Of a stretch of 64,000 nt of DNA, positions 11,250 to 43,846 are shown one piece after another. The notes under the pieces are model-generated. The model was not told where the DNA came from. It searched no databases and worked only from the letters and a program-made list of their open reading frames with translations. The translations under genes were made by a program, and so were the position numbers. Source of the DNA: a virus; the IMG/VR virus record IMGVR_UViG_3300013104_000002, positions 82,491 to 146,490 of that record, one strand, 5' to 3'. Position 1 is the first letter of the stretch. Each line of letters starts with the position of its first letter.

Positions 11250-11954
11250 ATGAGAGAGTTAAAAAATGACATTCATTACAAAATCACTTTAGACGAAGAT
11301 CAAAAATTAGTTAAATCTGATATTTATGATAAAGAAATTGTTGTGATTTCAGGAAGAGCAGGATCAGGTAAAAGTTTAGTAGTTGCACAAACGGTACTTG
11401 ATTTAATTTTTAAAGGATACGTAGATAAGGTGTATGTAACCCGTGCAGCAGTTGAGGTTGGTAAAAGTTTAGGATTTCTTCCTGGTGAGCTTTCTTCAAA
11501 ATTCGATCCCTATATTGAGGCATTTAGAGATAATTTATATGCGTGTTATGATAAGAATAAAGTTGATAAGCATCTTACTCATCTAAGTGGAGGTGAAGAA
11601 AATAAAGACAAAAATGCTAATAAAACTACAGTTGCAAAAATTGAAGGTATACCAACACAATATATCCGAGGAAAAACAATAGGGAACAGAGAGGTATTAG
11701 TAATAGAAGAAGGTCAAAATTTAACTGAGTTTGAAATGGAGGCTTTATTAACTCGCCTAGGAAAAGGAGGTAGAATTGTAATTAATGGAGATAATGCACA
11801 AAAAGATATCAGAGAAACTTATACTGGATTAGATTTTGCTATAGAATTAGCTAAAAATATTGAAGGCATTGCTTATCATAAATTGAAATCAAATCACAGG
11901 TCAGATTTAGTTGGTAAAATACTAGATTATAAATATAATAAAGTTTCTAAATAA
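11250..11954 (+). CDS. phoH: PhoH-like ATPase
   Basis: GRAGSGKS, TRAAVE, LGFLPG, YIRGKT, EEGQN, TRLG, GD-x-x-Q-x-D. Confidence 0.92.
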   Translation: MRELKNDIHYKITLDEDQKLVKSDIYDKEIVVISGRAGSGKSLVVAQTVLDLIFKGYVDKVYVTRAAVEVGKSLGFLPGELSSKFDPYIEAFRDNLYACYDKNKVDKHLTHLSGGEENKDKNANKTTVAKIEGIPTQYIRGKTIGNREVLVIEEGQNLTEFEMEALLTRLGKGGRIVINGDNAQKDIRETYTGLDFAIELAKNIEGIAYHKLKSNHRSDLVGKILDYKYNKVSK

Positions 11955-11957
11955 ATA

Positions 11958-11989
11958 TTTGCATAATTAAAATAAAAGTATTATATTTG
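11958..11989 (+). promoter_or_regulatory. promoter of non-coding cassette 1
   Basis: TTTG 11958-11961, TATATTTG 11982-11989; nearly identical to the promoter at 44590-44620. Confidence 0.7.
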
Positions 11990-11998
11990 CAGTATAAA

Positions 11999-12424
11999 GA
12001 TTGAGAAAATAAAGTGTGGCTCTTATAGATTAGTTGCGGGTTGATCAGTGTTCCGCGTAAAAAATTAACGAGTCGGCGCAAGTTTAGCTTAGAAATAAGT
12101 TCCAAGTATCACGAAGGCTGGATTAAATAAACTAAAAAACTCTAACCATAATCAATTTTTAACAGAAACAGAAGTTGCCCCAAAATAAATATTCGTAACG
12201 TTAAATCGTAATAGGCGCACGAAGGAGTTATTCCGCGATATTTATCTTCTGTTTTTATTATTTTGCGCGAAATCTAAAAAATATAAAGATCAAGCAGTTG
12301 TATATATTTCAGAATTAGGATCGTAATTACGCAACTTAAAATAAGTAATTCAAAGAAGACTATGAGTTTTTGACGGTTGAGCCTTTAAAACTGTTCCCTT
12401 CCTGCCGATGAGAATGGCTTATTT
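11999..12424 (+). ncRNA. array of about four candidate structured small RNAs
   Basis: No ORF >=60 aa, locally higher GC. Consecutive closing stems: ~11999-12157; AAACAGAAG/CTTCTGTTT (12166-12254); AGTTGT/GCAACT (12296-12336); AAATAAGT/GCTTATTT (12339-12424). Confidence 0.5.
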
Positions 12425-12456
12425 GGGTTAAAATAATAAAATAACGTATAGAAAGT

Positions 12457-12490
12457 AAGGGAGTGAAAAGCTTGAAAGTAGCTCCCTTTT
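12457..12490 (+). terminator. intrinsic terminator closing cassette 1
   Basis: AAGGGAGT...GCTCCCTT followed by TT. Confidence 0.55.
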
Positions 12491-12638
12491 AAATTAAAAA
12501 TTATGACAAAATTCACTAAAGGCTTCACTTATTTTTATAATGGTCGGAAATTAAAAGATTTCGATGAGTGGGAAAAATATTTTAAGAAAGCTCCAACAAC
12601 AGTAACTACAATAATTAAAAACCTAGAAGTGCATTTAT

Positions 12639-13133
12639 ATGATTAATTTTACAGAAAGTAATACAGGAGGAATAATTTTTATTTCAAATTTAGGTTTTTC
12701 CACAGAACAAAGTAAAAAAGAACAAGAAATGGGACACCGATTATATGATGAAGCCAGAGAGCAACAAAATAAAATACAATATAAAAACTACTTAACTTCT
12801 AAAGAATTAAGTGACATGGAAGAAGTAAAAGAAACAGGAGTAAAACTAAACCAAGGAAAACCAGAACTATCTTTGTTATTTAAACAGTTCCCAAAAGCTT
12901 TAGAGGCAATTGCTAAATGTTCCGAATATGGTCATACTAAATATAAAGAAACAGATACAGATTATTTGAATTTTAAGCGTGTTCCAGGAGGAAGTAAAGC
13001 CTATGCAGATGCTGGATTAAGGCACAGACTTTTTAAGGAAGGAACAACAGATTTAGATAGTCAATTACCACATTCTTTCCATACTGCATGGAATGCTTTG
13101 GCGGAGTTAGAACTTATACTAGAAAATAAATAA
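12639..13133 (+). CDS. dATP/dGTP diphosphohydrolase (DUF5664-like)
   Basis: GVKLNQGKPELSLL...YG-x-x-KY...Y-x-DA-x-LRH...D-x-DSQLPH-x-x-H-x-AWNALA-x-LEL; the true start may be downstream. Confidence 0.8.
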   Translation: MINFTESNTGGIIFISNLGFSTEQSKKEQEMGHRLYDEAREQQNKIQYKNYLTSKELSDMEEVKETGVKLNQGKPELSLLFKQFPKALEAIAKCSEYGHTKYKETDTDYLNFKRVPGGSKAYADAGLRHRLFKEGTTDLDSQLPHSFHTAWNALAELELILENK

Positions 13134-25934: not shown

Positions 25935-26719
25935 CTCTCCAATCAGCCAGGCACTTTTTCCCTCCATACCCACCTTAGTATTGTTTCGGTTTTATCTGTC
26001 CTTAGAAAGCCGATTTTTACTTTTCGTTTCCAGATTTATTTTTAGTTGTTAGTTACTTTTATTTTGTTTCTTAGTTACTTGCTTAGTTACTTTTTATCTG
26101 TTTTTATATTGTTTTTCGCAGAATTTTTTAGCTCCTGTTTATTTTATATTTTCATTAGTATAATTTAAATAGGATTTTTTGTTTTTATAATCAAATTGTT
26201 TTTGCCCGAAATTATAATATATGAACGCATGTGCGCGTACAATACGAAATTCTTTTTTAATATCCTAGTGTTTTTTATTTTTTATTAAGTTATTTTCGCC
26301 GTTTCTTTGTAGTGTTGAAAGGGTAGTGGGTTACTAACCAACTAAACAAAGTTCTTATAAGTAAAAGATTTTTAATAAACAAATTTATTTTTAATTATTT
26401 TTGTTTTATCTTTACAAAAGAATTAAGGATTACAAGTTATTTGACATATTGACAAGCGGTGTTACAAGTATCATATAAAGCTACTATTAATTTAGAAAGT
26501 GATTGCAGGGTGCGAACAAAGGTACACGCTTAATTTATCGGATTAAAACAATACTCTATTTATTAGAGAATCATATAAACATATATTAATGGCTTAATGT
26601 AAAGCCTTTTCTTATTCTTTTTTGTCGGCGAAATGCGGGAAAAGAAAACAAAGCCCTTGCAATTTAGTTGTAGCATCGAAGCAACGAGGGCGCAATTAAC
26701 AATTTAAAACAAAAACATT
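25935..26719. other. long non-coding region; candidate genome terminus/origin and early control region
   Basis: ~780 bp with no ORF, strong T skew, TTAGTTACTT x3 (26049, 26071, 26083), transcription diverges around it. Confidence 0.5.
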
Positions 26720-35900: not shown

Positions 35901-36232
35901 TTTTCCGCAAAAGATTTAAAAAAGTATATAGGATATGAAATTATAGATTTCTATCAAAACAATAATAACAAGGTTTGTAAAGTAATCACAAAAGGAAATA
36001 GAGAGTTTTATAAACCGTTAGATTCATACAAATGAAAGAACAATTAAGAGCTTTAATCACCAAGTTAGAGCAGGAGAATAGAAACAGAAGTATTATTTTA
36101 GAAGATGATAATACTTTACCTGAAACACATTATAATTTACGTGTAAAGTATAACAATACATTATATATTATTAAACAGTTGAAAGAGATTTTACTTTCTT
36201 AATTTCTTTTTTCGCGCAAAAAACTTAAAAAC

Positions 36233-42905: not shown

Positions 42906-43846
42906 TGGAAGAAAAAAAGTACCTTTACTGGGCGATACAATCAAGTCAATCAGTAAACCCAACAGAAGAACAATTAGAGCTTTTTCAAGCTAAATATAAA
43001 GAAGATTATGAACAAGATTTAGTTTATGAAGGAGAAGATCTTTTAGATAAATTTAGATTAAATGGTTTTAGAAATCCTTTATTCAGCTCTATTACTTCGA
43101 TCATTTTAGCTTTTGAGAACGGAGGAGAGATGAGAGTGAAATATATTACAGGAAGTGAGGCTGATTTGTTACAGAATTTTGTAAACCTATTACGAAACAG
43201 TTTTCAAGATTATACCCTTATTAACTTTGATTCTGAAATTTTATTACCGTTTTTAGGTGTTCGCCTACATAAGAACAATTTTATCAACTTAATCCATCGA
43301 GACTTAAAATACCAAGGCGGAATGAGAAGCTGGAACTTTACAGGAATCTCAATAAAAGACTACTACAAAGGTGGAGGTAAATATAGTTTCTCTTTAAAAG
43401 AGATTGCTTACATTTTAAATATTGACACACAAGGATTAATCAACCATCGTGATGAATTTACTTATGTAAATGCAGGGGATGAAGAAGCTTTAAAAATTTC
43501 GGCTATAAAACAAGTAGAAGTAATGGCTGAGATTTGGAGAAAATTAAATGAACTTCCAAAACTGGAAACTAAATTAATTGAAGAAACAGTTAAAGATGTA
43601 GTTGAAGAGGAAAATACAGGGAAAACTCTTCTTAAGTCTATTTATCGCGCCGAAAACATTGACAACAAAACAAAAGAAGAATTGAAGAACCTTTTGGCTA
43701 AAAAGAAAATTCTAAAAAAAGATAAAGCTATTATAGAAGAAATTCTGACATCAATTTACATCAGTAATGAAATGTTTAAAACAGATTCAGACGCGACAAA
43801 AGAAAGAAAAAAACAAGAAATTAAAGACTTACTAAATGAGTATTAA
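42905..43846 (+). CDS. PolB-type 3'-5' exonuclease-like protein, apparently degenerate
   Basis: I-x-SI...SE-x-x-LL-x-x-F...N-F...LPFL-x-x-R...SL-x-EIA-x-x-L-x-I; ExoI/ExoII acidic residues not evident. Confidence 0.45.
   Translation: MEEKKYLYWAIQSSQSVNPTEEQLELFQAKYKEDYEQDLVYEGEDLLDKFRLNGFRNPLFSSITSIILAFENGGEMRVKYITGSEADLLQNFVNLLRNSFQDYTLINFDSEILLPFLGVRLHKNNFINLIHRDLKYQGGMRSWNFTGISIKDYYKGGGKYSFSLKEIAYILNIDTQGLINHRDEFTYVNAGDEEALKISAIKQVEVMAEIWRKLNELPKLETKLIEETVKDVVEEENTGKTLLKSIYRAENIDNKTKEELKNLLAKKKILKKDKAIIEEILTSIYISNEMFKTDSDATKERKKQEIKDLLNEY

What the first reader, a model, noticed from the sequence alone, without database searches (positions are those of the whole stretch)
11958..12490. Two matched non-coding cassettes with a shared promoter: a candidate phage small-RNA array system
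Seen: the ORF-free blocks at ~11990-12490 and ~44625-44885 are each preceded by almost the same promoter (TTGCATAATTAAAATAAA-agtatTAtATTTGCAGTAT at 11959; TTGCATAATTAAAATAAA-ggttgTAgATTTGCAGTAT at 44590). Each holds consecutive ~40-160-nt units closed by a terminal stem, and each has TTTTGCGCGAAA between units (12261, 44763). Cassette 1 ends in a terminator. Units 1 and 2 of cassette 1 share GC-rich words that are rare in this genome (TTCCGCG at 12051 and 12231, GGCGCA at 12075 and 12214, CACGAAGG at 12110 and 12218). Inference: these are polycistronic precursors processed into several stable sRNAs (decoys, antisense or anti-defence RNAs), sitting where such phages often keep tRNA clusters.
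Basis: partly seen in the sequence, partly recalled or inferred. Interest (0 to 1): 0.8.

Follow-up and report, generated by a model that had tools for sequence, protein, structure and literature searches.

The report
Modular non-coding RNA operons in phage
Two gene-free blocks in this large phage of Bacteroidota bacteria look like small operons of folded, non-coding RNA modules (one tRNA-like) that sister phages swap with real tRNA genes; the folds are conserved, but transcription was not measured and the function is unknown.

Summary
Both blocks are ORF-free. They lie behind near-identical promoters, which are ordinary Bacteroidota sigma-A promoters (-33 TTG, -7 TAnnTTTG) also found before many protein genes. 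TTTTGCGCGAAA is not cassette-specific; it belongs to a motif dispersed through the genome.

Cassette 1 (11994-12490) has three modules.
- Unit 1 recurs in two sister phages: 28 pairs, 9 with compensatory changes.
- Unit 2 recurs in three: 19 pairs, 15 compensatory.
- Unit 3 recurs in one: 49 pairs, 3 compensatory, none broken.

Phages whose PhoH protein is at least 90% identical carry the same promoter-driven block with shuffled content. In the closest one a genuine tRNA-Met sits exactly where unit 2 lies here.

Cassette 2 opens with a 125-nt tRNA-Leu-like RNA. It scores 27.9 bits against Rfam tRNA (threshold 29) and has 65 nt where the anticodon arm has 13. The remaining unit of cassette 2 has no homologue.

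No module matches Rfam and no ORF is conserved. Best reading: early stable-RNA operons of the tRNA-cluster kind, like T4's tRNA region with its extra stable RNAs. Expression, processing and any decoy or anti-defence role are untested. This scan has noted comparable modular cassettes in other phages.

The parts
11958..11989 (+). Promoter of cassette 1: -33 TTTG (11958-11961) and -7 box TATATTTG (11982-11989). Predicted transcription start about 11994.
   Evidence: Consensus and box position (-12 to -5) are taken from PMC9723704.
11994..12163 (+). Unit 1 (module A). Terminal helix 11995-12004 with 12152-12161; inner helix GUGUGGCUC with GAGUCGGCGC; GC hairpin at 12035-12057.
   Evidence: Homologues in L070 (67.8 bits) and L063 (36.3 bits). 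Of 28 pairs, 9 changed on both sides and 94.8% of cells are paired; 0 of 500 shuffles reach this. The terminal helix appears in all three independent folds.
12166..12256 (+). Unit 2 (module B). P1 12166-12174 with 12246-12254; 5' bulge UUGCCCCAAA at 12175-12184; P2 12185-12195 with 12236-12245; conserved apical UAGGCGCACGAA at 12212-12223.
   Evidence: Homologues in G001 (46.7 bits), L007 (29.4 bits) and weakly L065. Of 19 pairs, 15 changed on both sides and 97.4% of cells are paired; 0 of 500 shuffles reach this. Independent folds give the same architecture.
12246..12275 (+). Junction motif copy: pyrimidine arm CTTCTGT, U-rich tract, GCGCG core, A tract.
   Evidence: The same motif occurs in L010, L064, L065, L070 and L076.
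12293..12456 (+). Unit 3 (module C), a multi-hairpin domain. In L063 it begins immediately after the 3' end of a tRNA-Met.
   Evidence: Conserved in L063 with 18 differing columns out of 203. Together with the hairpin below: 49 predicted pairs, 3 with compensatory changes (12316/12435, 12404/12418, 12405/12417), 1 one-sided change, none broken.
12457..12490 (+). GC-rich hairpin plus a short U run: a probable weak terminator or 3' stabiliser, 12 nt before the ATG at 12503.
   Evidence: Identical in L063. Not called by the simple scanner.
44589..44620 (+). Promoter of cassette 2: -33 TTG and -7 box TAGATTTG (44613-44620). Predicted transcription start about 44625.
   Evidence: PMC9723704.
44630..44754 (+). 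tRNA-Leu-like RNA: 7-bp acceptor stem, Leu-type D arm, perfect T arm, and 65 nt where the anticodon arm has 13. No CCA is encoded and the discriminator base is U.
   Evidence: RF00005 27.9 bits, against a threshold of 29. It is the only ARAGORN hit in the genome when introns are allowed. Fold; comparison with the phi4:1 tRNA-Leu genes.
44747..44777 (+). Junction motif copy (U-rich tract, GCGCG, A tract) directly after the tRNA-like 3' strand.
44788..44882 (+). Unit B: a 95-nt domain closed by a perfect 10-bp stem, ending 18 nt before the ATG at 44901. No homologue was found.
   Evidence: Sister locus L076 has a different ~110-nt stem-closed unit in the same place.

Best explanation
The two blocks are small operons of stable non-coding RNAs in a ~146-kb phage of Bacteroidota (probably Flavobacteriia) that is distantly related to Cellulophaga phages phi4:1 and phi17:2.

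How it most likely works:
- Host RNA polymerase with sigma-A starts about 5 nt after a consensus -7 box. This step is inferred.
- It transcribes a string of independently folded modules, each closed by a helix between its own 5' and 3' ends. The folds are shown by covariation for cassette 1.
- Cassette 1 holds three such modules (A, B, C) and ends in a hairpin.
- Cassette 2 holds a tRNA-Leu-derived RNA whose anticodon arm is lengthened so far that normal decoding looks implausible, followed by one more stem-closed domain.

The modules behave as interchangeable parts. Sister phages keep the promoter and the position but combine modules A, B, C, another module (X) and genuine tRNAs differently. 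Recombination probably occurs at the repeated promoter and at the pyrimidine-arm/U-tract/CG-core motif, but this is inferred.

Also inferred, not shown: tRNA-processing enzymes (RNase P, RNase Z) cut at the tRNA or tRNA-like modules, and the terminal helices protect the released RNAs. This would resemble the T4 tRNA cluster with its two extra stable RNAs. What the non-tRNA modules do is unknown.
For: Non-coding, behind a promoter:
- Both blocks are ORF-free with consensus promoters.
- There is no protein-level similarity to relatives in any frame.

Covariation:
- Module B: 15 of 19 pairs changed on both sides; 0 of 500 shuffles reach this; slid controls give 2-5.
- Module A: 9 of 28 pairs; 0 of 500 shuffles; slid controls give 0-1.
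- Module C: all 7 of the 18 differing columns that fall in predicted pairs keep the pair.

Module shuffling among phages with PhoH at least 90% identical:
- L063 has A, tRNA-Met, C.
- L070 has A, X and a junction-motif hairpin.
- L075 has X, other sequence and tRNA-Met.
- L007 has B, a hairpin and a tRNA.
- True tRNAs in these cassettes score 54-73 bits.

tRNA-like element: 27.9 bits with a Leu-type D arm and a perfect T arm.

Precedent: intergenic regions were transcribed more strongly than most genes in the Cellulophaga phage phi14:2 (10.1101/2020.03.07.982082).
Against: - There are no expression data.
- Folding energies are no better than shuffles.
- Each module has only 2-4 known copies, and the alignments for modules A and B were fitted to the tested structure, which inflates pair counts.
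- The tRNA-like element and unit B have no homologue in related phages. Relatives lack cassette 2 altogether.
- Several relatives lack any cassette after PhoH (L006, L068/L069), so the RNAs are dispensable.
- The hairpin 12 nt before the next gene, and unit B abutting a start codon, would also fit a leader or attenuator role.
Confidence: 0.68

Rival explanations
1. Decaying remnants of a tRNA cluster. The blocks are what is left after tRNA genes were lost or corrupted. They are still behind their old promoter but have no function of their own.
For: - Relatives hold true tRNAs at the same site, and phi4:1 has 23 tRNAs.
- This genome has no bona fide tRNA.
- The tRNA-like element falls below the Rfam threshold. 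It has A where G18 is expected, U as discriminator and an interrupted anticodon arm.
- Cassette content is very variable, and the cassette is absent in some relatives.
Against: - Compensatory changes maintain helices in modules A, B and C across phages, which neutral decay would not do.
- Apart from the tRNA-like element, none of the modules resembles a tRNA.
- The promoters are perfect consensus copies.
Confidence: 0.12
2. Cis-acting leaders. The blocks are long structured 5' untranslated regions or attenuators that control the downstream genes (12503 and 44901) by regulated termination or translation.
For: - Both blocks run straight into co-directional genes with no other promoter.
- The hairpin at 12457-12488 ends 12 nt before an ATG, and unit B ends 18 nt before an ATG.
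- In many copies the junction motif lies 15-35 nt before start codons, and in some it sits between a sigma-A promoter and the gene.
- Possible alternative pairings of the motif exist (12253-12273 with 12421-12441).
Against: - The same modules precede unrelated genes. Module B sits before a different gene in G001 and before a tRNA in L007; module C follows a tRNA in L063.
- tRNAs are embedded among the modules.
- 500 nt of independently closed domains is unlike known attenuators.
Confidence: 0.12
3. DNA-level shuffling cassettes. Only the repeated promoter and the terminator-like junction motif are conserved. They act as recombination points, as with PeSL elements of T4-type phages, and the sequence between them is cargo of no RNA function.
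For: - The promoter and junction motif recur at module borders in many relatives while the bodies differ.
- PeSL precedent: PMC2839356 and PMC4122927.
- In relatives the cassette 2 site is an insertion hot spot holding a homing-endonuclease-like gene and a TnpB gene.
Against: This does not explain compensatory base changes inside the modules, or the conserved single-stranded motifs UUGCyyyAAAA and UAGGYGCACGAA. It is compatible with the best explanation as the shuffling mechanism rather than a true alternative.
Confidence: 0.06
4. Small-peptide genes hidden in the blocks.
For: Short TTG/GTG frames exist: 12041-12130 (29 aa), 44709-44813 (34 aa) and 44765-44851 (28 aa).
Against: - None starts with ATG.
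- Homologues differ by insertions and deletions, and by start-codon loss, in those frames.
- No tblastn match to relatives.
Confidence: 0.02

Closest known systems
T4 tRNA gene cluster with its two extra stable RNAs (species 1 and 2, also called RNAs C and D). This comparison rests on my own knowledge; it was not retrieved here.
   Same: - Lies in the early region and is transcribed by host polymerase.
- Strings tRNAs together with non-tRNA structured RNAs of unknown function.
- Is dispensable and variable among relatives.
   Different: - There is no sequence or Rfam match.
- This phage has lost every true tRNA and keeps only a tRNA-like RNA and unrelated modules.
- The host is Bacteroidota, with a different promoter type.
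- Co-processing with tRNAs is inferred only from sister phages.
tRNA (Rfam RF00005), type II tRNA-Leu
   Same: Acceptor stem, U8, Leu-type D arm (GGUGGAAUUAGUAGACAC), long variable arm, and a T arm with GGUUCAAGUCC.
   Different: - 65 nt replace the 13-nt anticodon stem-loop.
- The score is 27.9 bits, below the 29-bit threshold.
- A stands at the G18 position, the discriminator is U rather than A, and both candidate anticodon loops lack U33.
PeSL promoter-terminator motifs of T4-type phages (PMC2839356, PMC4122927)
   Same: Short conserved promoter and stem-loop sequences are repeated at the borders of segments that are swapped between close relatives.
   Different: - Here the cargo is non-coding RNA modules rather than genes.
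- The promoter lies at the 5' border and the stem/U-tract motif at the 3' border.
- Recombination at these sites was not demonstrated.
Bacterial Y RNA-like YrlA (RF02553) and tRNA-scaffold RNAs
   Same: The T arm, D arm and acceptor of a tRNA are joined to a long helix that replaces the anticodon arm.
   Different: - No YrlA match in the window.
- In YrlA the RNA ends lie in the long helix. Here they lie in the acceptor stem.
- Whether a Ro60-like (Rsr) protein is present in the phage or its host was not examined.

Membership tests
tRNA (RF00005) | Score at or above the Rfam gathering threshold (29 bits) | tested here: not met
   27.9 bits, E 7e-4; same score in the whole-genome search.
tRNA (RF00005) | 7-bp acceptor stem, D arm and T arm with the conserved T loop | tested here: met
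   cmscan alignment and fold. The acceptor stem has two G-U pairs. The D loop reads AG where GG is expected.
tRNA (RF00005) | 5-bp anticodon stem with a 7-nt loop and U33 | tested here: not met
   65 nt stand in place of 13. The fold gives a 10-bp helix, a 9-nt bulge and an inner hairpin with loop ACAGG. Standard ARAGORN finds nothing, and the intron mode reports an arbitrary 'Asn'.
Phage tRNA-cluster stable RNAs (T4 type) | Non-tRNA structured RNAs lie in one transcription unit with tRNA genes | tested here: inconclusive
   Met in sister phages: L063, L075 and L007 have tRNAs between or beside the same modules. In this window only a tRNA-like element is present. Co-transcription itself was not measured.
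Phage tRNA-cluster stable RNAs (T4 type) | Processing by RNase P and other tRNA enzymes into discrete stable species | not testable with these tools
PeSL-like shuffling motifs | A composite terminator stem-loop plus early promoter is repeated at the borders of exchanged segments | tested here: inconclusive
   The promoter and junction motif recur at borders, but not as one composite unit, and exchange points were not mapped.
Intrinsic terminator (12457-12490) | GC-rich stem, short loop and a U tract of at least 5 | tested here: inconclusive
   The stem is 7-8 bp with 4 G-C pairs, the loop is 16 nt and only 4 U follow. The scanner reports none. The hairpin is fully conserved in L063.
RNA anti-CRISPR (solitary repeat unit), proposed for 12297-12335 by another first-stage note | Similarity to a CRISPR repeat of the host group | tested here: not met
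   A GTTG...GGAnnGTAAnnAC...AAC pattern gave 16 single hits in 401 genomes against 17 for the reversed control, with no arrays. The pattern was my own, built from Cas13b repeats as I recalled them, so this is a weak test.
YrlA / Y RNA-like (RF02553) | Match to the covariance model | tested here: not met
   No hit at E up to 10 in 44560-44920 or 11900-12560.

The most novel reading that the evidence does not exclude
The modules are trans-acting counter-defence or takeover RNAs carried on a swappable platform.
- The tRNA-Leu-like RNA could be a non-decoding decoy or scaffold. It keeps the parts read by tRNA-processing enzymes, and perhaps by tRNA-targeting defence nucleases, while displaying a new hairpin.
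- Modules A, B and C could be protein-binding RNAs. Conserved single-stranded motifs such as UAGGYGCACGAA would be the binding sites.
- The mix would be reshuffled between sister phages under host selection.
Probability: 0.15. Interest if true: 0.85.

Novelty: new variant of a known kind. Interest (0 to 1): 0.55.

Why it matters
Phage tRNA clusters are usually read as codon-usage aids or as spare parts against tRNA-cutting defences. This locus shows that in one phage lineage the same promoter-driven slot is filled interchangeably with true tRNAs, a tRNA look-alike that probably cannot decode, and at least four unrelated structured RNAs absent from Rfam.

That points to a pool of small phage RNAs that is exchanged like gene cassettes and whose functions are unknown. 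It offers three new candidate RNA motifs with covariation support, in a host phylum (Bacteroidota) where phage non-coding RNAs are almost unexplored. It adds a further case to the modular phage RNA cassettes this scan has met in phages of other hosts.

Tried and rejected
- Rfam at gathering and at E-value thresholds found nothing except the sub-threshold tRNA hit.
- blastn of both cassettes against 50,697 phage records gave no match.
- IMG/VR pattern scans found no real homologues of the tRNA-like element, unit 2 or unit 3. Unit 2 matched only G001, plus two chance coding hits.
- The metagenome pattern scan for expanded tRNA-Leu-like RNAs gave 12 loci. One pair (L038/L040) has the same 125-nt layout (38.2 bits) but comes from an unrelated phage, and its insert does not align.
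- The genome scan with the same pattern found mostly partial tRNA-Leu duplications.
- Pseudogene test: six-frame peptides against relatives gave nothing.
- Other ORF-free gaps of G000, G001 and G002 share only the promoter and junction motif with the cassettes.
- nhmmer and covariance-model searches found no extra copies of modules A, B, C or X.
- Junction motif as the 3' arm of a hairpin in all its copies: not supported for the five most pyrimidine-rich copies that I tested.
- No sigma-factor or T7-like polymerase gene was found that could explain the motif as a phage promoter. The sigma search rang in its control genomes, but the T7-type polymerase search rang in none and so says nothing about absence.
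- CRISPR-repeat idea for 12297-12335: chance-level hits only.
Logan contigs could not be searched as whole records.
- The MAFFT alignment of the three module B copies was out of structural register, so I aligned them with a single-sequence covariance model instead.

Full report
**Setting.** The window is the right-hand 64 kb of a 146,490-bp IMG/VR virus with direct terminal repeats and about 30% G+C. Its nearest cultured relatives are Cellulophaga phages phi4:1 and phi17:2 (Lightbulbvirus), with DnaB 45% identical. phi4:1 carries 23 tRNA genes at the start of its rightward gene array. This genome has none by standard ARAGORN. Cassette 1 lies between a PhoH-like gene (11250-11954) and a dGTP/dATP diphosphohydrolase-like gene. 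Cassette 2 follows a gene (43836-44585) whose relatives carry a PD-(D/E)XK nuclease domain.

**The observation.** The two promoters are real and match each other far beyond chance: 2 hits against 0 expected. They are standard Bacteroidota sigma-A promoters, with a -33 TTG and a -7 box TAnnTTTG that occupies -12 to -5 (PMC9723704). Close variants lie 15-25 nt before many protein genes in this phage and its relatives, for example at window 5230, 13772, 17634, 42103, 50036, 55769 and 62493. Predicted starts are about 11994 and 44625. The second lies 5 nt before the tRNA-like acceptor stem.

TTTTGCGCGAAA does occur in both cassettes. It also occurs at 36210(-) and as four near copies. It belongs to a family of T-tract/CG-core/A-tract sites found in dozens through the genome. 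Many of them lie 15-35 nt before start codons, and some lie between a sigma-A promoter and the gene. So it is not a cassette-specific spacer.

The GC-rich words shared by units 1 and 2 are real. CACGAAGG occurs only twice in the whole genome, both times in cassette 1.

**Cassette 2.** Positions 44630-44754 score 27.9 bits against Rfam tRNA, whose threshold is 29. The acceptor, D and T arms align, and 65 nt replace the 13-nt anticodon stem-loop. It is the only ARAGORN hit in the genome when introns are allowed.

The D arm is of the tRNA-Leu type, the T arm is perfect and the variable arm is long. The anticodon arm folds as a 10-bp helix, a 9-nt bulge and an inner hairpin. Two readings of that arm are possible:
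- Read as a 5-bp stem with a 7-nt loop, the inner hairpin carries CAG (a Leu anticodon) at its centre.
- The bulge (AAUAAAAU) resembles the UAA anticodon loop of a phi4:1 tRNA-Leu.

Either way U33 is missing, and the discriminator base is U. I consider normal decoding implausible and call it tRNA-like, not a tRNA.

Relatives with 69-88% identical nuclease genes have no cassette at this site. Some carry other insertions there instead, such as a NUMOD3-type endonuclease or an IS605 TnpB. The closest relative with DNA available (L076) has a promoter, the junction motif and a different ~110-nt stem-closed unit, but no tRNA-like element.

A 125-nt element with the same layout exists in an unrelated AT-rich phage contig (L038, 38.2 bits). 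Its insert is not alignable with this one.

Unit B (44788-44882) is closed by a perfect 10-bp stem. It has no homologue, so it remains unverified.

**Cassette 1.** Relatives at 85-88% PhoH identity mostly have a promoter-driven ORF-free block at the same place, but with different content (L010, L064, L065, L009). Some have none (L006, L068/L069). Members of the 90% PhoH cluster gave the decisive comparisons:
- L063 has the same promoter, a homologue of unit 1, then a genuine tRNA-Met (73 bits) exactly where the window has unit 2 plus the junction motif, then a homologue of unit 3 that starts at the tRNA's 3' end.
- L070 has unit 1, then a different module (X), then a hairpin ending in the junction motif.
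- L075 has module X, other sequence and a tRNA-Met.
- Unit 2 recurs in G001, before a protein gene. It also recurs in L007, directly behind a sigma-A promoter and followed by a hairpin and a tRNA.

**Structure evidence.**
- Unit 2 (module B). Three independent folds give the same design: P1, a 5' bulge UUGCyyyAAAA, P2 stacked on P1, and an apical domain with UAGGYGCACGAA. A covariance model built from the window copy alone finds the G001 copy at 46.7 bits and the L007 copy at 29.4 bits, with all pairs standard. On that alignment, 15 of 19 pairs changed on both sides and 97.4% of cells pair. No shuffle in 500 reaches this, and slid controls give 2-5.
- Unit 1 (module A). All three folds pair the first bases of the transcript with the last bases of the unit. 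The model-based alignment has 28 pairs, 9 changed on both sides, and 94.8% of cells paired. No shuffle in 500 reaches this, and slid controls give 0-1.
- Unit 3 (module C). There are two sequences with 18 differing columns. Seven of these fall in predicted pairs and all keep the pair: three compensatory pairs and one G-U to G-C change. None is broken. With two sequences this is suggestive only.

Three caveats apply. The alignments for modules A and B are fitted to the tested structure. Copy numbers are small. Folding energies are not better than shuffles.

No module matches Rfam. No frame is conserved, and there is no protein-level similarity to relatives.

**The junction motif.** In the cassettes its pyrimidine arm pairs with an upstream purine arm, and the two arms co-vary between phages:
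- ACAGAAG with CUUCUGU in the window and in G001
- CAGAAGAAA with UUUCUUCUG in L010
- ACAGAAAG with CUUUCUGU in L064
- CAGAAGAAG with CUUCUUCUG in L065
- AGAGAGG with CCUCUCU in L070

The arms enclose 40-170 nt and are followed by a U-rich tract. This looks like a terminal stem plus a termination or processing signal. The five most pyrimidine-rich copies elsewhere that I tested show no such upstream arm, so the role of the motif is unresolved. I found no phage sigma factor; the search for a T7-type polymerase was uninformative because it rang in no control genome.

**Interpretation.** The evidence fits promoter-driven operons of stable, independently folded RNA modules of the tRNA-cluster kind, with modules and tRNAs exchanged between sister phages. 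The closest precedent I know is the T4 tRNA region with its two additional stable RNAs (from my own knowledge). The repeated border motifs recall PeSL-mediated shuffling in T4-type phages (PMC2839356, PMC4122927). High transcription of intergenic regions has been reported for a Cellulophaga phage.

Rivals, with my odds:
- tRNA-cluster debris, 0.12, argued against by the covariation.
- Cis-acting leaders, 0.12, argued against by the modules' changing neighbours.
- Pure DNA shuffling sites, 0.06.
- Peptides, 0.02.

Function is unknown. The decoy or anti-defence reading remains possible at about 0.15.

**Related notes in this scan.** Another first-stage note proposed a CRISPR-repeat mimic at 12297-12335. 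My pattern test gave only chance-level single hits in 401 genomes. The scan has reported comparable modular RNA cassettes with tRNA-like parts in phages of other hosts. I did not test those claims.

Noticed in passing
window 24821, 26199, 27124, 31272, 32073, 34445, 34719, 36207, 37906, 38642 and others: A dispersed motif (pyrimidine-rich arm often CTGTTTT, T tract, 4-7 C/G with CG, A tract) recurs dozens of times. Many copies lie 15-35 nt before start codons, and some lie between a sigma-A promoter and the gene. Its function is unknown; candidates are a phage promoter, a regulator site or a termination signal.
   Followed up: partly
window 44586-44900 and loci L030, L032, L034, L036, L076: The site after the gene at 43836-44585 (relatives carry a PD-(D/E)XK nuclease domain) is an insertion hot spot. 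Relatives carry there a NUMOD3-type endonuclease gene, an IS605 TnpB gene, small ORFs, or a different non-coding unit.
   Followed up: partly
window 26053-26719: This is the largest ORF-free gap of the genome (667 nt). It shares 62-77% similar stretches, some internally repeated, with an 831-nt gap in relative G002 (100563-101393) and with gaps in G001. It could be an origin or another RNA locus.
   Followed up: no
L038:1379-1503, L040, L039:1336-1467, L043, L045:459-592 and 607-751: Metagenomic phage contigs hold other tRNA-like elements with 50-70-nt expansions, often inside tRNA arrays. L039 also has a weak YrlA (Y RNA-like) match at 632-738, at 34 bits against a threshold of 69.
   Followed up: partly
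window 44624-44633 and 44806-44815: A perfect 10-nt complement links the 5' leader and start of the tRNA-like RNA to a segment inside unit B. It could be a long-range or intermolecular pairing, or chance.
   Followed up: no
window 12503-13133: The 47-aa and 164-aa ORFs after cassette 1 correspond to one longer gene in relatives: 204 aa in L006, 227-307 aa with a dGTP_diPhyd_N domain in L063, L070 and L075. The gene may be split or mis-started here.
   Followed up: no
G000:C1:6577-6635 (outside the window): A second weak tRNA-model hit: 23.4 bits over 59 nt.
   Followed up: no
window 11996-12010 and 44628-44640; L070 and L063 cassette starts: Module A and the tRNA-like RNA begin with nearly the same bases (A/G)UUGAG(A/G), which form the 5' strand of their terminal helices. 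Module A also holds AGAUUAGU, which resembles the tRNA-like D loop AAUUAGUA. This may be remote common ancestry or coincidence.
   Followed up: no
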